From a virus (Duplodnaviria; Heunggongvirae; Uroviricota; Caudoviricetes): 38,049 nt of DNA. The position numbers and the translations under genes were made by a program. Under the pieces are notes generated by a model, which made no database searches, was not told the origin of the DNA, and was given only the letters and a program-made list of their open reading frames with translations. This document shows positions 4,605-38,049 of this stretch, piece by piece (the first letter of the stretch is position 1; every line of letters begins with the position of its first letter). Where the stretch lies: the IMG/VR virus record IMGVR_UViG_2802429217_000005, positions 1 to 38,049 of that record; one strand, 5' to 3'.

Positions 4605-5000
4605 TCACATTTCATAGGTAATGACATAAGTCAGATCGGCAGAACTCCACAGGCCCGCATCATCGTCGCGCCGGTAGTCATAGCCACTGGCCACCATACT
4701 GGTGAGCAAATCTGACAGTGCCGGGATATCGCTCATCACCGGATAAATCCGGGACTCCATCCACGAATCCAGCTCTGAATCCGGTACCTGAGCAGGCAGG
4801 AAAACTTCGATATGCAGCTCCGCCTGCCAGGTATCGCTGTCCAGCTCTTCGCCCGTGTATTCAGCGCCGGTGAGATAAACGGCAACTGCCGGAAAATCCG
4901 CCTCATCAAAAACAGCGGGGCGACCATCAAAAAACGTCGCCCCGGTGTCATGCTTCTCCAGTGCATCCAGTACGGCTGCACGGAGTTCAGTATGTTTCAT
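4605..5000 (-). CDS. U: tail terminator protein U
   Basis: 131-aa [34 protein letters not shown]... matching lambda gpU. Confidence 0.93.
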
Positions 5001-24503: not shown

Positions 24504-24659
24504 TTACTCCTCAGGTTCGTAAGCTGTGAAGACAGCGACCTCCGTTTGGCTGGTTCGGATTCGTACCTCACAGAGATCTTTCCTCGTTACCAGTGCCGTC
24601 ACAATGACGGTTAAACAGATGACGATCAGGGCGATTAACATCGCCTTTTGCTGCTCCAT
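24504..24659 (-). CDS. hok: Hok-family type I toxin (HokD/RelF-like)
   Basis: 51-codon ORF missed by the >=60-aa track: MEQQKAMLIALIVICLTVIVTALVTRKDLCEVRIRTSQTEVAVFTAYEPEE, near-identical to E. coli HokD as recalled; AGGAG 9 nt upstream. Confidence 0.85.
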   Translation of the reverse strand: MEQQKAMLIALIVICLTVIVTALVTRKDLCEVRIRTSQTEVAVFTAYEPEE

Positions 24660-24841
24660 AGCCTGCTTCTCCTAGCCTTTCGGCACGTAAGAGGCTAACC
24701 TACATTTGTGAGACATAGATTGGGCCTCAGATTAATGTTAAGCGTCTTGCAGGACGCTTAATGTTAACTGTGCTTTTCTTTATCTGCCTTTTGGTGTTCA
24801 TGCCTGAGACAGATAGCCTCAATCACCCGCAGCGATTTTAC

Positions 24842-24856
24842 TTACCCTCCCCTCTA
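24842..24856. repeat. left copy of a 15-bp perfect direct repeat TTACCCTCCCCTCTA
   Basis: Exact 15-mer, repeated at 25962-25976; the flanks continue as an imperfect repeat (CGATACTACAAC vs CGATATACTA...GCTACAAC). Confidence 0.8.
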
Positions 24857-24943
24857 GTTCATTCGATACTACAACTTTATTTTCTTTTCGTTGTCTATAT
24901 AGTAAATAACATGTAATAAAAGTTACTCACTAACAATGGAGAG

Positions 24944-25168
24944 ATGCATATGCCCACACTTATCGGAAAAGTGCTTCGTCGATACACAAGTGCTGTAGCA
25001 ACCCATGTTGACACCCATCTTGAGCAAACGACAAAATATCGTCTTACAGTTGATGCGAACGGTAATGCCACCCTGAACATAGAAAACCCAGAAGTTCAAG
25101 CAGACATCATCAAGAAAATGAAACAATTGCGAAAACTACATAACCGTACAGACAAGGAAGTTGCTTAA
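24944..25168 (+). CDS. small basic protein of unknown function (first gene of the repeat-bounded operon)
   Basis: 74-aa ORF (likely start at the ATG at 24950, GGAGAG 6 nt upstream); its TAA overlaps the ATG of the next gene (TAATG); candidate -35 TTGTCT / -10 TAATAA upstream. Confidence 0.5.
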   Translation: MHMPTLIGKVLRRYTSAVATHVDTHLEQTTKYRLTVDANGNATLNIENPEVQADIIKKMKQLRKLHNRTDKEVA

Positions 25169-25959
25169 TGGGTCCATTGATTATAACTGTGATTCTCGTG
25201 TGTGGTTTTTGGTACACCGAGAATCACTATCAATCGAGAATTCATCACGCAAGAACAAATGGGTGGTCATCCTATTTCTACGTTGCAATGCATGGGTGTC
25301 GTTTTGTTGCTCAAGGATTTCTTTTGACGCTCGGGATCTACATGCTTTTCTGGCTACTGAACTCTATCCCACACATAATCAATATTTTCCGAGACAAACC
25401 TATAGAATGGCATTTTTTTAATTGGTTACTTGAAACCAAAGTGATGGAATTACCACTTTTTGCTGTCATCACCATCATTTTCGCTTGTTGTATTGCTTAC
25501 TCTGAGGGGGTGGATGCGCGAAAAGAAATGGAGAATGAAGAAGCGCGCCAAAAGGCTTACAGGGAGATGGCATCAAAAGATTCACTAGAAAACCTATTGA
25601 TCCAAGCCATTGACACAGAGATGCTGATTTTTGTAACACTAAAATCCAGAAAAGTATATATCGGGTATGTGTCAGCACCACGTGTTGAATTCCACAACAG
25701 TGCGCATCTTGAGATCATACCATTCATTAGTGGTTACAGAGATAAGGACTCACTACGCTACATAGAACAACACCGATACTATGATCTCTATCTATCCAAA
25801 GAAATCACATTTGAGTCCGAACCATTAAATTTACAACATTTTCGACACGTCATTCCTATCGAACAAATTGAAGCGATCTCGCTCTTTGATGAAAGCACGT
25901 ACAGCGATTTTGAAAGATTTTCCGAGCCAATGCCTGACACAAAGCAATTACCAGTATAG
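25168..25959 (+). CDS. membrane protein with three N-terminal TM helices and a ~150-aa C-terminal domain, unknown function
   Basis: 263-aa ORF, translationally coupled to the upstream gene; AAGGAAG Shine-Dalgarno; visibly AT-rich; no family recognised. Confidence 0.6.
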   Translation: MGPLIITVILVCGFWYTENHYQSRIHHARTNGWSSYFYVAMHGCRFVAQGFLLTLGIYMLFWLLNSIPHIINIFRDKPIEWHFFNWLLETKVMELPLFAVITIIFACCIAYSEGVDARKEMENEEARQKAYREMASKDSLENLLIQAIDTEMLIFVTLKSRKVYIGYVSAPRVEFHNSAHLEIIPFISGYRDKDSLRYIEQHRYYDLYLSKEITFESEPLNLQHFRHVIPIEQIEAISLFDESTYSDFERFSEPMPDTKQLPV

Positions 25960-25961
25960 TA

Positions 25962-25976
25962 TTACCCTCCCCTCTA
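25962..25976. repeat. right copy of the 15-bp direct repeat TTACCCTCCCCTCTA
   Basis: Exact match to 24842-24856, 3 nt after the stop of the 263-aa gene. Confidence 0.8.
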
Positions 25977-26282
25977 ACGATATACTAAAAAGCCGCTACA
26001 ACTGGACTGCCCCCATAAAGTTGGACAGTTCATGTTAAGCGGCTTTCAGGGCTTGACCCAACAGAAGTTAGATTGTAAGTATCCCGCTTAAACGGACCAT
26101 CTGGTCTTTGTTCCACGGTGACGTGCTCATACCTCCTGAAATGTGGGAGATTTGAGTATGGTTGTCCCTTATGAGCGAAATTTGCACGAAGCGGATAAGT
26201 TACCGGAGCTGAAGGTCCGCTGTGAGCGAAGAGCGGACCTGAGATTGTGGTATGCTAATTTATGGGGATCAGGTCAATTGTA

Positions 26283-26975
26283 TTAGTTATCTTTTTGCTT
26301 TTCTTTATCCCATTTCTTTGCAGTGGTCTGATACCACTCTTCACGCACTCGTTGTTCCTCGGCTCTGTCACTTGAATTATAGTTGTCCGTTTTAATTTTT
26401 TTGCTTCCATGGGAAATCGGCCTCCAGTCTTCTCTAATCTTTTTCACCTGCTCGGCTATCTGTGTCATTGGACTCCTTGCACCTAAGTAGCTAACCCCCT
26501 CGAAAGAAGCCATATCATAAGAATACTCATTCCGCTCTCTTTCAGTTGAGCCCGGCTGTTTAGACCAACTAATACTAACAGAATAAACTTGATCTTTAAT
26601 CTGTTCATACTTACAAAGACTGCTGTTGAGCGAATGGCCGTTTTTTAATACGCTAACCTTGCTAAATGGTATACCTATATTTTTTCTATGTTCAGCATTT
26701 ACCAGTGGGGGATTAAATCCGATTTCAATATCATAGGCTGGGGCATTTCCGGTATTAGCAATATTGATATCAAAATAAAAAGCAGCCCAAGAATTTGGTT
26801 CAAGAGTCACAACGACGTGAGGTTGAACTGATGCGTCAACCATCCTTTTTGTCTCGTCTGCTAATAGCCTTGTTACTCTCCACAAGAAAAATGTAGCAAC
26901 TGCTGTTAGCAATGCTGCCAAAGCGGAGATAAGTGTGCTTACAGTGTTTATATGCTCTGCGATAAATTCGATCAT
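26283..26975 (-). CDS. N-terminally TM-anchored protein of unknown function
   Basis: 230-aa ORF with one hydrophobic segment (residues ~10-32) and a Lys/Glu-rich C-terminus; AAGGA Shine-Dalgarno; convergent with the repeat-bounded operon. Confidence 0.55.
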   Translation of the reverse strand: MIEFIAEHINTVSTLISALAALLTAVATFFLWRVTRLLADETKRMVDASVQPHVVVTLEPNSWAAFYFDINIANTGNAPAYDIEIGFNPPLVNAEHRKNIGIPFSKVSVLKNGHSLNSSLCKYEQIKDQVYSVSISWSKQPGSTERERNEYSYDMASFEGVSYLGARSPMTQIAEQVKKIREDWRPISHGSKKIKTDNYNSSDRAEEQRVREEWYQTTAKKWDKEKQKDN

Positions 26976-27466
26976 GAGTTGTCCTTGGGGGCGTACTAAT
27001 TGTTTTCAAGACTAAAATAGCGCCGGGCTTGAAAAATTGCACACTTATGGTTCGATTTACCTCAACAGTTAAGGCTTCAGCTTCCCCCATGCACCTCACC
27101 CAGCTCAAGACTGTATGATGTCTGACAAAGAACTTACTGACACTTGAAAACGAGGTAGCGTCTAGGATTTCTCGTAGGGGAAGGATTGAATACGAAGCCT
27201 GTATATTGCTCCGCGAACGCTGCTGAGAGCAGTTTAAATGTTGGGCGTTTATGTGGCCTTTCACTCACCAGCATGAGTTCAATGCCTGTGAATTACCGAC
27301 AACAATATAAAGGGGGTGGCATCATCATATATCCAAGGTAGAGTCAAATCCTTTAACTGGTTTTATGATCAGCGTCAATTGTTTAATTATTGAACGTTTA
27401 CGAAGCGGCACGGGAGTCATATAACTAATGGGCAGGTATAAGCCTGTATCACGAGGAATCAGTAAA

Positions 27467-27646
27467 ATGGCTGATGATAAGACCAAAATCGGTACCCCTG
27501 ACAATGATTTAATAAGTATCAAACAGGATTACGAAAGACGTGATTGGGCTGAAAAGTTTGGAGTTAGCGAGGCCAAACTTGTTCAAGCCGTACAGGCTGT
27601 AGGTCATTCGGCTAAGAAAGTACAGGCATGGCTTAAAGACCATTAA
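27467..27646 (+). CDS. small protein, DUF3606-like
   Basis: 59 aa from the ATG at 27467 (MADDKTKIGTPDNDLISIKQDYERRDWAEKFGVSEAKLVQAVQAVGHSAKKVQAWLKDH); family recalled from the motif pattern only. Confidence 0.45.
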   Translation: MADDKTKIGTPDNDLISIKQDYERRDWAEKFGVSEAKLVQAVQAVGHSAKKVQAWLKDH

Positions 27647-27698
27647 TATATGAGCGCCTTTCTAGGCGCTTTTTTCTCTGTCCTTTTGGAGATGATTT

Positions 27699-27977
27699 AT
27701 GGCTAATAATTTATTTATTACTTATGACCTCATTAAAACGAAAGATTATGCGGCTGTGTATGATGCAATTAAATCTTTAGGAAATTGGGCTTTAACAACT
27801 GAATCGAACTGGTATGTTAACTGTAGTTACTCTGCCGAGGATGCAGCCAAAATTGTGAGGGCGGTCATGGATAGTGATGATAAACTTATTGTTGTAGACG
27901 CAACCAATAACTTAGTTTATTGGTACAATCTCTCTGATGAAGTTAGTAACCAAATTCAGACTGAGTGGTACAAGTAA
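27699..27977 (+). CDS. hypothetical protein
   Basis: 92-aa ORF with GGAGA Shine-Dalgarno 7 nt upstream; followed by a hairpin terminator; no family recognised. Confidence 0.45.
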   Translation: MANNLFITYDLIKTKDYAAVYDAIKSLGNWALTTESNWYVNCSYSAEDAAKIVRAVMDSDDKLIVVDATNNLVYWYNLSDEVSNQIQTEWYK

Positions 27978-27979
27978 TT

Positions 27980-28003
27980 AAAGGGGGATACCCCCCTTTA
28001 ATT
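27980..28003 (+). terminator. candidate intrinsic terminator after the plus-strand gene pair
   Basis: AAAGGGGG-ATAC-CCCCCTTT hairpin followed by an AATT-rich stretch, 3 nt after the stop at 27977. Confidence 0.45.
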
Positions 28004-28205
28004 CAGAAACTATCATGATTGAAACATTAAATATACTGGGTTTATTCTATCATCCCTGCTCTCTTGCTATATGTCCTGAAAGCGTTCTTTTAAACCTTCT
28101 GCTCAGTATGTCCGGTAATGGCACAAAGCGGACAACCACGCTAGCTCTACCCTATGCCATGAAAATGCCAATTCACATATTAATTAATGCTCTTAAATAT
28201 CATCA

Positions 28206-28625
28206 CTACAATAAATACCGAACATCTCCCTGATAAAACGACAATATGCGCTTCATAACTTCGCTTTTACGGCACTCACTACAAATTATATTATGACGCC
28301 TGTCGTAACGACGTATTTCTCCGTCTGGTAATGACCAAATAAGGTCTGGATCAACCACAACTGGTTTCTTCACCTTTGCCCTCGATAGTTTTTTGCGGGC
28401 GTTTTGCCAGTCTTTACGTGCCTGCTCAGACGGGAATAACCCGTAGCCAGAGTTGTATACGTCACCATTCGCAACCAACTCCCTGGCAAGAACACTTATC
28501 TGATATCTTGTCGCCCCCGTTTTAGTTTCCAGTTGTCGTAACGTCTCGCGCCCACTCTGGCGTACGAGATCAACGATCTGCCCTTTAATTTTTTCCCGCT
28601 CTTCCTGTGTAAATACTTTTGCCAT
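28206..28625 (-). CDS. hypothetical protein with HTH-like segment
   Basis: About 139 aa from the ATG at 28625 (GGGGAGGG Shine-Dalgarno); TGATRYQISVLARELVANG HTH-like segment and a C-terminal CSEC motif; directly downstream of the replication genes. Confidence 0.5.
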   Translation of the reverse strand: MAKVFTQEEREKIKGQIVDLVRQSGRETLRQLETKTGATRYQISVLARELVANGDVYNSGYGLFPSEQARKDWQNARKKLSRAKVKKPVVVDPDLIWSLPDGEIRRYDRRHNIICSECRKSEVMKRILSFYQGDVRYLL

Positions 28626-28641
28626 AAGCCCTCCCCAGGAA

Positions 28642-29439
28642 TCACTTTTCCGACACAATACGACTGGAGGAATCGACAATCTGTCGGACAATATCCTGGT
28701 GCTTGTTCAGCTCCCGCAGTGCGGCGCAGACTCGCTCCCACTTCTGGACATGACTTTTCGCCCGGCGCAGTTCGCGGTTTGCCATATGCAGCGATGGTAA
28801 AATCAGGCCATTGGCTCGCGTTTCAGTGAACGATGGCAACGACTGCACAATGTCCCCCACAGTATCTGTTTTAATTTCTTCCTGTGTTGCCGCTTCCTGT
28901 ACTGGTAACGTAACAACGGCTGGCTGAGAAAAGGCTTTACCAGGTGTTTTCTCTACCGATACAACTTTCGGCTCTGCTGGTAAATTTTCCCCGGTTTCTT
29001 TTACCCGCATCCACTTACACCCCTTCCCCTGTCCCAGCTTAATCACCATGCCATCGCGGCAAAGCTTTTCCATCGCAGAAACCAGCGACCTGACGCAATC
29101 AGCACGCCCCACAGCAATTGCAATCTCAGCGGTGGTCATTGCCCCACCATGAGCAAGTGTGGACAGGATGTCGCAGCGATTCAGTGGCTCACGCTCTTTT
29201 CTGCTGACCACCGGACGGGATTTTCTTTCCACTTTACACACCGTTACTTTTTTTTCTTTCACGCCCGTTTGTCGTTCTGAAACAGACCAGTAACCATTAA
29301 CCGACACAACTTCTCCCAGCTCTTCGTACTCCCTCAGCATTTTAATCGCCTCTGCAGGTTCAATGCCCAAACTGGCAGCAAGCTCGGTGCACGTCACCTT
29401 TTGCATCGCTTTTAACGTATCAATCAACGTTTCCATCAA
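28642..29439 (-). CDS. replication-module protein in the position of the helicase loader (P-like by position only)
   Basis: 265-aa ORF immediately after the initiator gene; two winged-helix-like segments; no ATPase motifs seen; not similar to lambda P from memory. Confidence 0.45.
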   Translation of the reverse strand: MMETLIDTLKAMQKVTCTELAASLGIEPAEAIKMLREYEELGEVVSVNGYWSVSERQTGVKEKKVTVCKVERKSRPVVSRKEREPLNRCDILSTLAHGGAMTTAEIAIAVGRADCVRSLVSAMEKLCRDGMVIKLGQGKGCKWMRVKETGENLPAEPKVVSVEKTPGKAFSQPAVVTLPVQEAATQEEIKTDTVGDIVQSLPSFTETRANGLILPSLHMANRELRRAKSHVQKWERVCAALRELNKHQDIVRQIVDSSSRIVSEK

Positions 29440-29481: not shown

Positions 29482-30444
29482 TTATCCCCTGAACCCTGGT
29501 GGAATTTCGGTGTCCGGTTCAGAAATGTGATTCACACAACGCTGTACAGGCGAACGCCCCAGACGGATAACCAGCTCATCCCATTTATCGCGAAGTTTTG
29601 ACGGACTCATGATGTTTTTTACCCAGAATGGATCCCGCTGTACCCGACCAAACATTTCGCAGATTTGTCTGTGAGTTCTGCCATCCAGCATCCGCATTAT
29701 GCGCACGTCATTGGCCCATGCTGTCCAGTTGGGTTCTTTCGGTCGGGTGATCTCGCCATCATCGCTGGCGGCCTGTTCGTAAAGACTCACGATTCGCCCC
29801 CAGATCCACTGTGCGCATGCCAAATCCTCCTGATTTCCCCACTGACGTTTTTTTGCACTAAACACAATCGCATCAGGATGTCGGGTTAAAAAGTCCTGTT
29901 CAGCCGTCTGCGGGTCCGGTTGCGAAGCTTCCGGACGAAAAGATCTTTTATCTGACGGATCAGGTTTTAATACTGACGGATCGGGGCCAACCATCGCCCC
30001 CATAACCGGCTGTTTTTTACCAACGGTTGATCCATCAAAATTTGACGGGTCAATCGTTGAGGGGGCAATATTTGACTGGTCAACTGTTAACGGGTCATTT
30101 TTTGCCGGGCTAATTTTTCTTTTCGGTTTATATGCCTCACGCGCCGCCTCAGCTGCTGCTTCGAGTTTTTCCACATTAAGGCGGTAGATATTGCTTTCAT
30201 TACGCCCACCGACCTTACGCTCCTCCTTCGTCAGCCAGCCGTTCTTTTCCAGTTCCGCTATCGCCGCTTTAACCGTTGATTCACTCTTTGCCCCAATCTG
30301 ACGACGAATGGTCTCCACTGCAGGCCATGACACACCTTCGTCATTGCTGTAGTCTGCAAGGCGAGCCATTACTGCCACCCTGGATAAGATCATGCCGGTG
30401 AAGGCGCACCCTTCCCAGACAAGACCATGAAGCTTGCTGCTCAT
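29482..30444 (-). CDS. replication initiator (lambda O-like organisation) containing the origin iterons
   Basis: 320-aa ORF with an N-terminal winged-helix domain and a tandem repeat array inside the coding sequence (encoding PLTVDQSNIAPSTIDPSNFDGSTVG), as in lambda O/ori. Confidence 0.65.
   Translation of the reverse strand: MSSKLHGLVWEGCAFTGMILSRVAVMARLADYSNDEGVSWPAVETIRRQIGAKSESTVKAAIAELEKNGWLTKEERKVGGRNESNIYRLNVEKLEAAAEAAREAYKPKRKISPAKNDPLTVDQSNIAPSTIDPSNFDGSTVGKKQPVMGAMVGPDPSVLKPDPSDKRSFRPEASQPDPQTAEQDFLTRHPDAIVFSAKKRQWGNQEDLACAQWIWGRIVSLYEQAASDDGEITRPKEPNWTAWANDVRIMRMLDGRTHRQICEMFGRVQRDPFWVKNIMSPSKLRDKWDELVIRLGRSPVQRCVNHISEPDTEIPPGFRG
30021..30110. repeat. candidate replication origin: three tandem ~30-bp iterons
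   Basis: CAACGGTTGA / CAATCGTTGA / CAACTGTTAA and TTGACGGGT / TTGACTGGT motifs recur with a 30-bp period, followed by an AT-rich stretch. Confidence 0.6.
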
Positions 30445-31209: not shown

Positions 31210-31860
31210 ATGATGATGGAAAGCCTTGGCATTAGGCTTAAGAGACTCAGAAAAGACAAGGGACTGACCCAAGTCGAACTGGGCAAGCTTTCTGGCGTAA
31301 CAGGGGTAACTATAGGGTACTGGGAGAAAGACCTAAACGAACCCGGTAGCAAAGCTCTTAGTAAATTAGCCCAAGCACTAGGAACTACTGAGTCCTATCT
31401 CCTATATGGAGTATCGTCTACTGAACCTACCCTTGTGCAGAACAATTCAGGCACCCAAATCCCCTATCTTTCATGGGGGGAAGCAATTTCTTTCCTAATT
31501 TTAGAAGGAGAGAAAACTATGGGAAATGCCGACAGAATCACCACATTCTTTGACGTCAAGGAGGGGGATTTTGCCGTTTCAATGCCTGATGACACTATGC
31601 ACAACCCATCAGGGTCGCCAAGCATTCCGGTTGGTGCCACAGTGATCATGAGGCCTAGAGAAAAATATAAAAATGGTAGTATCGTCGCTGTAATAGTCCC
31701 AGATCCGCTTACAAACGAACCATCTATGACTATAAAAAAATTAGTCATCGACGGAAAACTCGTGTATTTAAGCCCCCTCAATCCTCGCTATCAATCGTCC
31801 TTACTGACACCTGAATGTAAAATTGTTGCTGTAGCAAAAGGTGTGCAGTTCAGCCTATAG
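31210..31860 (+). CDS. CI-like prophage repressor (HTH-XRE N-terminus, S24 LexA-type peptidase C-terminus)
   Basis: 216-aa ORF; N-terminal LKRLRKDKGLTQVELGKLSGVTGVTIGYWE HTH; C-terminal FAVSMPDDTM ... IVAVIV ... MTIKKLV consistent with an S24 Ser/Lys autoprotease; GGGAGA Shine-Dalgarno. Confidence 0.85.
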   Translation: MMMESLGIRLKRLRKDKGLTQVELGKLSGVTGVTIGYWEKDLNEPGSKALSKLAQALGTTESYLLYGVSSTEPTLVQNNSGTQIPYLSWGEAISFLILEGEKTMGNADRITTFFDVKEGDFAVSMPDDTMHNPSGSPSIPVGATVIMRPREKYKNGSIVAVIVPDPLTNEPSMTIKKLVIDGKLVYLSPLNPRYQSSLLTPECKIVAVAKGVQFSL

Positions 31861-33357: not shown

Positions 33358-33415
33358 TTTTCTGGTGACGTTTGGCGGTATCAGTTTTACTCCGTGACTG
33401 CTCTGCCGCCCTTTT
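33358..33415 (+). ncRNA. dicF: DicF small RNA
   Basis: TTTCTGGTGACGTTTGGCGGTATCAGTTTTACTCCGTGACTGCTCTGCCGCCC followed by TTTTT matches the recalled 53-nt DicF sequence and its terminator. Confidence 0.8.
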
Positions 33416-36753: not shown

Positions 36754-38049
36754 ATGAGAGAAGTTGAAATGAAATATCCGACAGGCGTGGAAAACCATGG
36801 AGGGAAATTACGTATCTGGTTTGTTTATAAAGGCGTAAGAGTCAGGGAAAATCTGGGGGTTCCTGACACAGCAAAAAACAGGCGCGTTGCAGGTGAACTA
36901 CGCTCCTCTGTTTGTTACGCAATAAAAACTGGTGTTTTCGACTATGCAAAACAGTTTCCCTCCTCACGCAATCTGGAAAAATTTGGTGAGGCCCGACAAG
37001 ATTTAACCATAAAAGAACTGGCTGAAAAATTTCTGGCACTGAAAGAAACTGAAGTCGCCAAAGCATCACTCAACACATACCGTGCCGTCATCAAAAATAT
37101 CCTGAGCATAATCGGTGAAAAAAATCTTGCCTCATCGATTAATAAAGAAAAATTACTGGAGGTTCGTAAAGAGCTACTGACTGGATACCAGATCCCCAAA
37201 AGTAACTATATTGTTACACAACCAGGGAGATCGGCTGTAACTGTAAATAATTACATGACAAATCTTAACGCCGTGTTCCAGTTTGGTGTTGATAACGGTT
37301 ACCTGGCAGATAATCCGTTTAAGGGGATCTCGCCATTAAAGGAATCAAGAACCATTCCTGATCCTCTTTCACGGGAGGAATTTATCCGTCTTATCGACGC
37401 CTGCAGAAATCAGCAGGCCAAAAATTTATGGTGTGTTTCTGTTTATACAGGCATTCGCCCTGGTGAACTGTGTGCGCTTGGGTGGGAGGACATAGATCTG
37501 AAAAATGGAACAATGATGATCAGGAGAAATTTAGCAAAAGATCGTTTTACGGTACCGAAAACACAGGCTGGTACCAATCGGGTAATTCACCTTATCAAGC
37601 CTGCAATCGACGCTCTCAGGAGTCAGATGACACTAACGAGGCTGAGCAAAGAACATATTATTGACGTTCACCTCAGAGAGTTCGGCAGAACAGAAAAACA
37701 AAAATGCACCTTTGTTTTTCAACCTGAAGTGTCAGCGAGAGTAAAAAATTATGGTGACCATTTTACCGTTGACTCAATAAGGCAGATGTGGGACGCAGCG
37801 ATAAAGCGCGCTGGCCTCCGCCACCGCAAATCATATCAGTCGAGACATACTTATGCCTGCTGGTCGTTGACAGCCGGTGCCAACCCGGCATTCATAGCAA
37901 ACCAGATGGGACATGCAGATGCGCAAATGGTGTTTCAGGTATACGGGAAATGGATGTCTGAAAACAATAATGCACAGGTAGCCCTGTTAAATACACAGCT
38001 AAGCGAGTTTGCCCCAACCATGCCCCAAAACGAGGTGGTGAAAAATTAA
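36754..38049 (+). CDS. int: tyrosine recombinase / phage integrase
   Basis: 431-aa ORF (possible true start at the ATG at 36769); C-terminal catalytic region with R...HxxR...Y-type motifs (HLIKPAIDALR, SRHTYACW, YGKWM); stop at the window end. Confidence 0.9.
   Translation: MREVEMKYPTGVENHGGKLRIWFVYKGVRVRENLGVPDTAKNRRVAGELRSSVCYAIKTGVFDYAKQFPSSRNLEKFGEARQDLTIKELAEKFLALKETEVAKASLNTYRAVIKNILSIIGEKNLASSINKEKLLEVRKELLTGYQIPKSNYIVTQPGRSAVTVNNYMTNLNAVFQFGVDNGYLADNPFKGISPLKESRTIPDPLSREEFIRLIDACRNQQAKNLWCVSVYTGIRPGELCALGWEDIDLKNGTMMIRRNLAKDRFTVPKTQAGTNRVIHLIKPAIDALRSQMTLTRLSKEHIIDVHLREFGRTEKQKCTFVFQPEVSARVKNYGDHFTVDSIRQMWDAAIKRAGLRHRKSYQSRHTYACWSLTAGANPAFIANQMGHADAQMVFQVYGKWMSENNNAQVALLNTQLSEFAPTMPQNEVVKN

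What the first reader, a model, noticed from the sequence alone, without database searches (positions are those of the whole stretch)
27428..28003. Opposite-strand two-gene unit with its own terminator inside the nin-like region
A DUF3606-like 59-aa protein and a 92-aa protein are encoded against the direction of early-right transcription and end in a hairpin terminator. This is typical of lysogen-expressed morons.
Basis: inference. Interest (0 to 1): 0.35.

Follow-up and report, generated by a model that had tools for sequence, protein, structure and literature searches.

The report
Mobile moron cassette, solo Cas2-like gene
The two small opposite-strand genes are real. They belong to a 1.9-kb accessory ("moron") cassette that also occurs, almost unchanged, in unrelated P2-like phages; one gene encodes a stand-alone Cas2-like protein, its function is untested, and the cassette was already on record as a moron of unknown function.

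Summary
A DUF3606 gene (27467-27646, 59 aa) and a 92-aa gene (27699-27977) lie on the + strand, antisense to the prophage's early-right operon. A 12-bp palindromic hairpin (27976-28003) follows them.

Three corrections:
- 27428 is an upstream in-frame ATG, not the start.
- The canonical intrinsic terminator lies between the two genes (27652-27681).
- The pair is part of a larger cassette (26223-28160) that includes a divergent 230-aa membrane protein gene.

The moron reading is supported. The cassette is about 95-96% identical to the "Z-region" of phage P2-EC53 and the fun(Z) slot of P2-like phage R18C. Of 102 complete E. coli genomes carrying it, 93 hold it in that P2 slot and 6 in this lambdoid slot. 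Its GC is 0.41, against 0.50 in the flanks. Sister lambdoid phages carry other cargo in the same slot, including Kiwa and retron defence genes.

The 92-aa protein is a diverged solo Cas2/VapD-like ferredoxin-fold protein from a large family that travels alone. DUF3606 models as a three-helix, UBA-like bundle. The two are not an obligate pair, which argues against a toxin-antitoxin module. Function and lysogen expression remain untested. This is a new location for a known moron; interest is low to moderate.

The parts
24845..28110 (.). Variable cargo slot of this Qin/Rac-type lambdoid prophage, between hok/sok and the DUF977 gene
   Evidence: Backbone homology to thousands of E. coli prophages stops near 24844 and resumes at 28110-28119. 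Other prophages carry Kiwa, retron ATPase+HNH, PLD, QueH, ParA and other genes here. GC 0.408 against 0.50 in the flanks.
26223..28160 (.). 1.94-kb mobile moron cassette shared with P2-like phages
   Evidence: 95.0-95.9% identity over 1942 aligned columns to P2-EC53 Z-region AJ512682, phage R18C and a P2-like prophage. The left edge is sharp at 26223 in three genomic backgrounds.
26283..26975 (-). ORF1, a 230-aa single-pass membrane protein ('putative lysogenic conversion protein' of P2-EC53), divergent from the pair
   Evidence: PHROG 11802 at E 2.8e-145; annotated CAD54906 in AJ512682. Invariant N-terminal TM segment followed by a conserved, uncharacterised C-terminal region; the family is widespread and travels alone.
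27304..27309 (-). -10 hexamer TATATT that AJ512682 annotates for ORF1, mapped onto the window
   Evidence: Mapping of the record's regulatory feature. Not tested.
27397..27425 (+). Candidate sigma-70 promoter of the DUF3606 gene: TTTACG, 17-nt spacer, TATAAC
   Evidence: Read by eye at 9/12 matches. The -35 is invariant and the -10 is TATAAC or TATAAG in six diverged copies. The strict consensus scan did not call it.
27467..27646 (+). DUF3606 gene, 59 aa
27652..27681 (+). Intrinsic terminator or attenuator between the two genes
   Evidence: 8-bp stem, 4-nt loop, U-run, dG -13.3, z -3.9. The stem is kept, with an A-U to G-U change and different loops, in 73%-identical relatives, and also where DUF3606 is replaced by another small gene.
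27699..27977 (+). Gene for a solo Cas2/VapD-like protein, 92 aa
27976..28003 (.). 12-bp perfect palindromic hairpin at the end of the pair; stable on both strands
   Evidence: A G-run/C-run hairpin is kept at this position in diverged copies whose sequence differs.
28108..28160 (.). Right junction: a segment common to cassette-free lambdoid backbones and to the P2-type cassette copies
   Evidence: 28087-28160 matches P2-EC53 and R18C. 28108-28205 matches lambdoid phages Tritos, Evi, mEp460_ev081 and 204576, which lack the cassette.

Best explanation
The finding is the right-hand two-thirds of a horizontally mobile, self-contained accessory ('moron') cassette, 26223-28160. It is lodged in the variable cargo slot that Qin/Rac-type lambdoid prophages keep between the replication-region gene DUF977 and hok/sok.

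The cassette holds three independently evolving genes.
- ORF1 encodes a 230-aa membrane protein on the - strand.
- The DUF3606 gene lies across a 491-bp divergent control region. It has its own sigma-70-like promoter, a Shine-Dalgarno and a conserved intrinsic terminator.
- A 92-aa stand-alone Cas2/VapD-like gene follows, with its own Shine-Dalgarno and a closing palindromic hairpin.

Proposed working (inferred). The + strand unit is transcribed from its own promoter independently of, and antisense to, the phage pR operon, so it can be expressed in the repressed prophage. The inter-genic terminator lets only read-through reach the Cas2-like gene, so DUF3606 should exceed the Cas2-like protein. 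The terminal hairpin, stable on both strands, insulates the cassette and the phage operon from each other.

The Cas2-like protein most likely acts as a small nucleic-acid-binding or nuclease protein using the conserved Asp10 at the end of strand 1 and Ser36 at the b2-b3 turn; a Cas2-style homodimer is assumed by analogy and was not modelled. DUF3606 is a small protein-interaction (UBA-like) module.

I think the most likely biological role is in conflicts between mobile elements, meaning exclusion of or interference with other phages. I put this at roughly 0.35-0.4. The alternative is a host-fitness or stress role.

The two genes are co-travellers, not an obligate pair.
For: Shown:
- ORFs, strand and DUF3606 identity.
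- Purifying selection on both genes.
- Cassette 95-96% identical in P2-like phages at the fun(Z) slot.
- 102 of 5426 complete E. coli genomes carry the pair: 93 in the P2 FI/G context and 6 in the lambdoid context.
- A third context lies beside the integrase of another prophage type.
- The slot is variable and holds Kiwa, retron and PLD genes in sister prophages, and other cargo in phages Tritos and Evi.
- GC 0.41 against 0.50 in the flanks.
- Both hairpins are stable and conserved across diverged copies.
- Cas2-like fold, plus repeated sub-threshold Cas2 profile hits.
- BPSL1038, a structural neighbour, is an experimentally shown dsDNA nuclease with a D11/SST site in the same places (PMC10491678).
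- The 92-aa family is large, about 92 aa and mostly single-domain.
- There is no conserved neighbour in 84 distant loci, and DUF3606 is present in only one of them.
- DUF3606 relatives stand alone in chromosomes.
- The R18C paper calls the same two ORFs morons.
Against: - No expression data exist.
- The promoter is a 9/12 match that the strict scan did not call.
- No protein of the cassette reaches a significant match to any PADLOC defence model; the best is Cas2_II at E 0.02.
- The terminal hairpin lacks a U-tract.
- Location in a cargo slot is only guilt by association, because such slots also carry non-defence genes, such as the acetyltransferase in phage Evi.
Confidence: 0.72

Rival explanations
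1. Type II toxin-antitoxin module of the VapX/VapD kind. The upstream small DUF3606 protein would be the antitoxin that neutralises a Cas2/VapD-like ribonuclease toxin. The module would stabilise the prophage or cause abortive infection.
For: - Two small co-directional genes with the small one first.
- The Cas2/VapD fold with a conserved Asp.
- The terminator would give an excess of the upstream product.
- In relatives the upstream gene is swapped for other small genes while the layout is kept, as happens with antitoxins.
Against: - The 92-aa family has no conserved neighbour in 84 distant loci; only one of them has DUF3606 and many have no small upstream gene at all. A toxin could not travel alone like this.
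- DUF3606 relatives stand alone in chromosomes.
- A 52-nt spacer with a conserved intrinsic terminator is unusual for TA operons.
- The two genes have different divergence histories: 91-93% against 67-73% nucleotide identity to the same relatives.
Confidence: 0.1
2. Counter-defence gene. The solo Cas2-like protein would act as a decoy or poison subunit that interferes with host CRISPR adaptation (the Cas1-Cas2 complex) or with another nucleic-acid-based immune pathway, to the benefit of the mobile elements that carry it.
For: - Repeated weak Cas2 profile hits.
- The family is carried by prophages and viral contigs across many phyla, with no cas1 or other conserved partner nearby.
- It is often preceded by variable small genes.
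Against: - There is no evidence of interaction with Cas1.
- The family is found in very diverse hosts, whose CRISPR content I did not check.
- The invariant Asp10 and Ser36 suggest a retained active site rather than a pure decoy.
- Placement antisense to the phage operon at moron slots fits prophage-state expression better than early lytic expression.
Confidence: 0.05
3. Host-fitness or stress cargo. DUF3606 and the 92-aa protein would be small stress-type cytoplasmic proteins picked up from bacterial chromosomes and kept because they help the lysogen, with no role in phage-phage conflict.
For: - Distant DUF3606 genes sit in chromosomal clusters of small genes next to Ku/LigD.
- In distant loci the 92-aa gene is preceded by other small hydrophilic proteins that I judged by eye to resemble DUF2188-type and lysine-rich repeat proteins.
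- Most of the 61 genome loci are not obviously prophage.
Against: - In Enterobacterales every context examined is a prophage accessory slot.
- The Cas2-like fold points to nucleic-acid chemistry.
- No stress-regulon evidence is available.
Confidence: 0.12
4. Ordinary nin-region genes of the phage, or chance ORFs, with no independent status.
For: The position lies between the replication genes and Q.
Against: - The strand is opposite to the operon.
- The cassette is absent from nearly all related lambdoid phages.
- It is present in unrelated P2-like phages.
- The genes show strong family conservation and purifying selection.
Confidence: 0.01

Closest known systems
P2-EC53 'Z-region' cassette (GenBank AJ512682) and the fun(Z)-site morons of P2-like phage R18C (PMC6823313)
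   Same: It is the same DNA: 95-96% identity over 1.94 kb, with the same three ORFs, the same hairpins and the same orientation relative to the flanking phage operon. The R18C authors describe the two short ORFs, one of them DUF3606, as morons of unknown function.
   Different: Here the cassette sits in a lambdoid prophage between DUF977 and hok/sok, not between tail genes G and FI. Only 6 of 102 E. coli genomes with the cassette have this placement. AJ512682 annotates only ORF1 and flanking 'inverted repeats', and those repeats were not significantly complementary in my alignment.
Cas2 (CRISPR adaptation subunit), VapD toxins and BPSL1038 (the Cas2/VapD nuclease sub-family, PMC10491678)
   Different: It scores below the Pfam and PADLOC thresholds for Cas2. 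The A1 family profile found no Cas2, VapD or BPSL1038 chain in the PDB sequence set at E<=10. There is an extra strand and a C-terminal helix. No cas1 or other conserved partner turned up among clustered neighbours. The BPSL1038 D(X20)SST motif is not reproduced; here it is D10...T34-E35-S36. No activity has been measured.
Classical phage morons and prophage cargo or defence hotspots (the P2/P4 hotspots of Rousset et al. 2022, PMC9122126)
   Same: A short, low-GC insert between conserved phage genes. It has its own transcription signals, high turnover of content among sister phages, and neighbours in the same slot that are validated defence systems.
   Different: The P2 hotspot studied by Rousset et al. 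is the one adjacent to cos, not the fun(Z) slot. No anti-phage activity has been shown for any gene of this cassette, and none matches a PADLOC model significantly.
VapXD-type type II toxin-antitoxin loci
   Same: A small upstream gene followed by a Cas2/VapD-fold gene on a mobile element.
   Different: The genes are separated by a conserved terminator, the pair is not conserved across the family, and DUF3606 has no detected DNA-binding domain.

Membership tests
Phage moron (sensu Hendrix/Juhala) | Extra DNA absent from closely related phages at the same position | tested here: met
   Only 6 genomes cover at least 80% of the 6.2-kb lambdoid context. Thousands match only the flanks and carry other cargo.
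Phage moron (sensu Hendrix/Juhala) | Own terminator | tested here: met
   A canonical terminator at 27652-27681 and a hairpin at 27976-28003, both at z about -3.9 and both conserved in diverged copies.
Phage moron (sensu Hendrix/Juhala) | Own promoter | tested here: inconclusive
   A conserved TTTACG-N17-TATAAC at 27397-27425, but no site was called by the consensus scan.
Phage moron (sensu Hendrix/Juhala) | Base composition different from the surrounding phage genes | tested here: met
   GC 0.39-0.41 against 0.50.
Phage moron (sensu Hendrix/Juhala) | Expressed from the repressed prophage | not testable with these tools
   Needs a lysogen transcriptome or 5'-RACE.
DUF3606 (Pfam PF12244) | Score above the Pfam gathering threshold over the full model | tested here: met
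   65.3 bits against 24.3, profile positions 1-54 of 54.
Cas2 (CRISPR-associated, PF09827) | Sequence match above the curated threshold | tested here: not met
   The window protein has no Pfam Cas2 hit. 16 of 36 family members hit only at sub-threshold level, best E 0.0021. PADLOC Cas2_II gives E 0.02.
Cas2 (CRISPR-associated, PF09827) | Ferredoxin-like fold with a conserved acidic residue at the end of strand 1 | tested here: met
Cas2 (CRISPR-associated, PF09827) | Encoded next to cas1 and a CRISPR array | tested here: not met
   The neighbours in the window are phage genes. Clustering of ORFs within 2.5 kb in 84 distant loci found no recurrent partner. cas1 was not searched with a dedicated model.
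BPSL1038 Cas2/VapD nuclease sub-family | D11(X20)SST motif and detectable sequence relationship | tested here: not met
Type II toxin-antitoxin module | Antitoxin and toxin genes form a conserved, co-transcribed pair | tested here: not met
   DUF3606 is adjacent only in close enterobacterial relatives, in 1 of 84 distant loci. A conserved terminator separates the genes.
Type II toxin-antitoxin module | Toxicity of the downstream product, neutralised by the upstream one | not testable with these tools
   Needs expression assays.
Known anti-phage defence systems (PADLOC-DB 2.0) | Significant match of any cassette protein to a defence model | tested here: not met
   There were only weak hits at E 0.02 for the two small proteins and none for ORF1.

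The most novel reading that the evidence does not exclude
The 92-aa protein would represent a large, uncharacterised clade of stand-alone Cas2-like proteins (2392 cluster representatives). Phages and islands across Proteobacteria carry it, often behind interchangeable small genes. It could be a new class of mobile-element conflict effector. One version is a minimal nuclease-based exclusion system. Another is an inhibitor of CRISPR adaptation that mimics Cas2. The upstream small proteins (DUF3606, a 42-aa 'TGQFV' protein, DUF2188-like proteins) would act as swappable sensors or regulators.
Probability: 0.1. Interest if true: 0.6.

Novelty: new member of a known kind. Interest (0 to 1): 0.3.

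Why it matters
This is a clean example of one accessory cassette exchanged between two unrelated temperate phage families (lambdoid siphoviruses and P2-like myoviruses), landing in each family's cargo slot in the same orientation. The P2-type copies still carry about 50 bp that otherwise belongs to lambdoid backbones downstream of DUF977, which hints at the direction of transfer.

It also flags the DUF977-hok interval of Qin/Rac-type prophages as a cargo and defence hotspot worth mining.

Finally, it identifies a large family of solo Cas2-like proteins on mobile elements whose function is untested. If that family has a defence or counter-defence role, a simple cloning and phage-challenge experiment in E. 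coli would reveal it.

As it stands, though, the finding is an ordinary moron of unknown function that databases and one paper had already noted.

Tried and rejected
- **Flanking inverted repeats as a transposition or site-specific signature.** The 'left/right inverted repeats' annotated in AJ512682, and the matching window flanks, score no better than shuffled sequence. The P2-EC53 arms score 10 against 8.9 +/- 1.6; the window flanks score 14 against 11.5 +/- 1.9. Rejected.
- **Known defence systems.** PADLOC gave no significant hit for any cassette protein or for the neighbouring 263-aa protein. NCBIfam gave nothing.
- **Sequence relatives with solved structures.** None for the 92-aa profile or for DUF3606.
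- **Rfam on the cassette and its 491-bp intergenic region.** Only sub-threshold matches to the terminal hairpin.
- **Viral structure library (BFVD).** No match at E<=0.001 and all the better-scoring hits unnamed. The afdb50 library was not available.
- **Domain fusions as functional clues.** Longer family members have no Pfam domains. The exception is one 1507-aa protein with baseplate and CBM domains, probably a gene-call fusion.
- **A conserved partner gene for the 92-aa family.** Neighbour clustering found none. Re-searching with a broader DUF3606 profile changed nothing.
- **The 234-aa gene upstream of Yersinia ruckeri DUF3606 as an ORF1 homologue.** It is not one.
- **An internal promoter for the 92-aa gene downstream of the terminator.** Only 27 nt are available, and I saw no plausible hexamers by eye.
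- **Literature searches** for P2-EC53, solo Cas2-like prophage genes and P2 fun(Z) expression returned nothing useful.

Full report
**1. Setting**

The window is a lambdoid prophage read backwards. The integrase lies at 36754-38049 (+) and a LexA-family repressor at 31210-31860 (+). On the - strand run the early-right genes in order: cro, YdaT, an HTH_36 replication gene (29482-30444), DUF1627, DUF977 (28206-28691), then hok/sok, DUF968, RusA and Q. Rfam finds sok at 24657-24826 and DicF at 33360-33411, so this is a Qin/Rac-type element. The best match is E. coli BCE049 at 99.8%.

**2. The observation**

Both ORFs are on the + strand.

- The first is DUF3606 (E 4.3e-18). Its real start is ATG 27467, giving 59 aa. 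All homologues begin MADDK there, RefSeq annotates it so, and GAGGA lies at 27453. Position 27428 is only an upstream in-frame ATG.
- The second, 27699-27977, has a GGAG Shine-Dalgarno and belongs to PHROG 1090.

Both are under purifying selection. Against 73-93%-identical relatives the synonymous to non-synonymous codon changes are 11:2 for DUF3606 and 30:23 for the 92-aa gene.

The terminal hairpin 27976-28003 is a perfect 12-bp palindrome, dG -17.3, z -3.9. It is equally stable on the - strand and has no clean U-tract.

A better intrinsic terminator lies between the genes. The stem is 27652-27671, followed by UUUUUUCUCU, with dG -13.3 and z -3.9. Both hairpins persist in copies that are only 67-73% identical in the 92-aa gene, with an A-U to G-U change and different loops.

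**3. What it is part of**

Window 26223-28160 is 95.0-95.9% identical to three other sequences:

- the 'Z-region' of phage P2-EC53 (AJ512682);
- the P2-like phage R18C;
- P2-like prophages, where it lies between the tail-sheath gene (FI) and the tail-fibre-assembly gene (G).

That position is the classical fun(Z) moron slot. The shared block also contains a divergent 230-aa ORF (26283-26975, - strand), annotated in AJ512682 as a 'putative lysogenic conversion protein'. A 491-bp intergenic region separates it from DUF3606.

In both phage families the cassette has the same orientation relative to the flanking operon: the pair is antisense and ORF1 is co-directional.

Of 5426 complete E. coli genomes, 102 carry the pair. 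Of these, 93 have it in the P2 FI/G context and 6 in the lambdoid context.

A 73-75%-identical DUF3606 plus 92-aa pair lies beside the integrase at the end of a third prophage type.

The R18C paper already describes these two ORFs as morons of unknown function (PMC6823313).

**4. The lambdoid site is a cargo slot**

Homology to thousands of related prophages stops just past hok/sok (about 24844) and resumes at 28110-28119. In between, other prophages and phages carry:

- Kiwa, QueH, ParA and ATPases;
- a retron-type AAA ATPase plus HNH, and a PLD protein;
- a single 444-aa opposite-strand gene in phage Tritos;
- an acetyltransferase plus a regulator in phage Evi.

GC is 0.41 in the slot and cassette against 0.50 in the flanking phage genes. 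The slot in this window also holds a second + strand pair, 74 aa and 263 aa.

**5. Junctions**

The left edge is sharp at 26223 in the lambdoid, P2-like and Pantoea leporis backgrounds.

At the right edge, 28087-28160 is shared with the P2-type copies. The overlapping 28108-28205 is shared with lambdoid phages that lack the cassette (Tritos, Evi, mEp460_ev081, 204576). That phage search returned no P2-like phages other than P2-EC53 and R18C.

So the P2-type copies appear to carry about 50 bp of lambdoid backbone. I take this as a hint that the cassette moved from a lambdoid phage into P2-like phages. This is inference.

The 'inverted repeats' annotated in AJ512682 are not significantly complementary.

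**6. The proteins**

*The 92-aa protein.*

- It models at pLDDT 92.9 as b-a-b-b-a-b-b-a.
- No curated threshold is reached. Even so, 16 of 36 family members hit Pfam CRISPR_Cas2 (best E 0.002) and 18 of 36 hit PADLOC Cas2d.
- Y9, D10, S36, W38 and Y39 are invariant. D10 ends strand 1 and S36 sits in the b2-b3 turn. BPSL1038 and Cas2 place their active-site Asp and Ser/Thr at these positions (PMC10491678).
- The family is large, with 2392 50%-identity representatives at E<=1e-3, almost all about 92 aa. It is spread over Proteobacteria and beyond, in genomes and viral contigs.

*ORF1.* It has an invariant N-terminal transmembrane segment followed by a conserved C-terminal region of unknown fold.

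**7. Are the genes a functional pair?**

Mostly not.

- In 84 distant loci of the 92-aa family, a broad DUF3606 profile finds a neighbour in only one, and no other conserved neighbour exists.
- In closely related prophages the same layout is kept (small gene, terminator hairpin, Shine-Dalgarno, 92-aa gene), but DUF3606 is replaced by an unrelated 42-aa ORF.
- Distant DUF3606 genes stand alone in chromosomes, for example beside Ku/LigD.
- ORF1 relatives also travel alone, including next to AbiJ in a locus with a P4-type primase.
- Relative to the same relatives, DUF3606 plus its leader is 87-93% identical in nucleotides, while the 92-aa gene is 67-73% identical. The cassette is therefore mosaic.

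**8. Mechanism (inferred)**

A conserved TTTACG-N17-TATAAC at 27397-27425 is the likely promoter, although the strict scan did not call it. Only 27 nt separate the first terminator from the 92-aa start codon. The Cas2-like gene must therefore be expressed by read-through, which would make it less abundant than DUF3606. The terminal hairpin, stable on both strands, would insulate the cassette and the phage operon from each other.

Three observations point the same way:

- the slot's other occupants include defence systems;
- the P2 location is that of fun(Z);
- the fold is nuclease-like.

On that basis I favour a role in conflicts between mobile elements, at about 0.35-0.4. A stress or fitness role comes next. 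A toxin-antitoxin module (0.1) and a CRISPR-adaptation decoy (0.05) are less likely.

**9. Verdict**

This is a new placement of a cassette already recorded as a moron of unknown function. The cross-family sharing and the solo Cas2-like assignment add modest interest.

Noticed in passing
window 24504-24826: A hok/sok type I toxin-antitoxin locus. Rfam finds sok at 24657-24826 (-), 81.8 bits, and a 51-aa Hok ORF lies at 24504-24659 (-). It forms the left anchor of the variable slot.
   Followed up: partly
window 33360-33411: DicF antisense sRNA (Rfam, 76.7 bits) in the early-left region. It marks the prophage as Qin/Rac-like; dicB is nearby in the matching RefSeq record.
   Followed up: no
window 24944-25959: A second opposite-strand cargo pair in the same slot: a 74-aa ORF (PHROG 32583) whose last base overlaps the start of a 263-aa multi-pass membrane protein (PHROG 3630/23864). 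The 263-aa protein had no Pfam, NCBIfam or PADLOC hit; the 74-aa ORF was scanned only against PHROGs.
   Followed up: partly
window 28087-28205: The right junction segment is shared both with cassette-free lambdoid phages (28108-28205) and with the P2-type cassette copies (28087-28160). This suggests the cassette left a lambdoid phage with about 50 bp of backbone.
   Followed up: partly
L094/L096 about 4815-4945; also L015 and L020: In 70-76%-identical relatives of the 92-aa gene, DUF3606 is replaced by an unrelated 42-aa ORF (MAKKTVVRSAITGQFVKP...). A terminator hairpin and Shine-Dalgarno follow in the same layout. Other distant loci have what look by eye like DUF2188-type or lysine-rich small ORFs upstream.
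   Followed up: partly
window 27380-27646 compared with L004/L095: The DUF3606 gene and its leader are 87-93% identical in nucleotides to relatives whose adjacent 92-aa gene is only 67-73% identical. The leader contains a small conserved palindrome, CAGG(T/C)ATAAGCCTG, at 27433-27446. This could reflect recombination between the genes or an extra constraint such as an operator or RNA structure.
   Followed up: partly
L124/L125 4001-5446: A 190-aa relative of ORF1 lies next to an AbiJ-domain gene and a P4-type primase (Pox_D5/D5_N). This looks like the P4-satellite defence hotspot described by Rousset et al.
   Followed up: no
L014 4193-4506 (Pantoea leporis): The same cassette (about 94% identical) occurs in Pantoea leporis, with a roughly 310-bp insertion at the position of window 27203 and an N-terminally extended ORF1 call of 295 aa. 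I did not characterise the flanking context.
   Followed up: no
L001 156-246 and 2114-2226 (AJ512682): The 'right' and 'left inverted repeats' annotated in the P2-EC53 record are not significantly complementary in a gapped local alignment (score 10 against a shuffle mean of 8.9, sd 1.6).
   Followed up: yes
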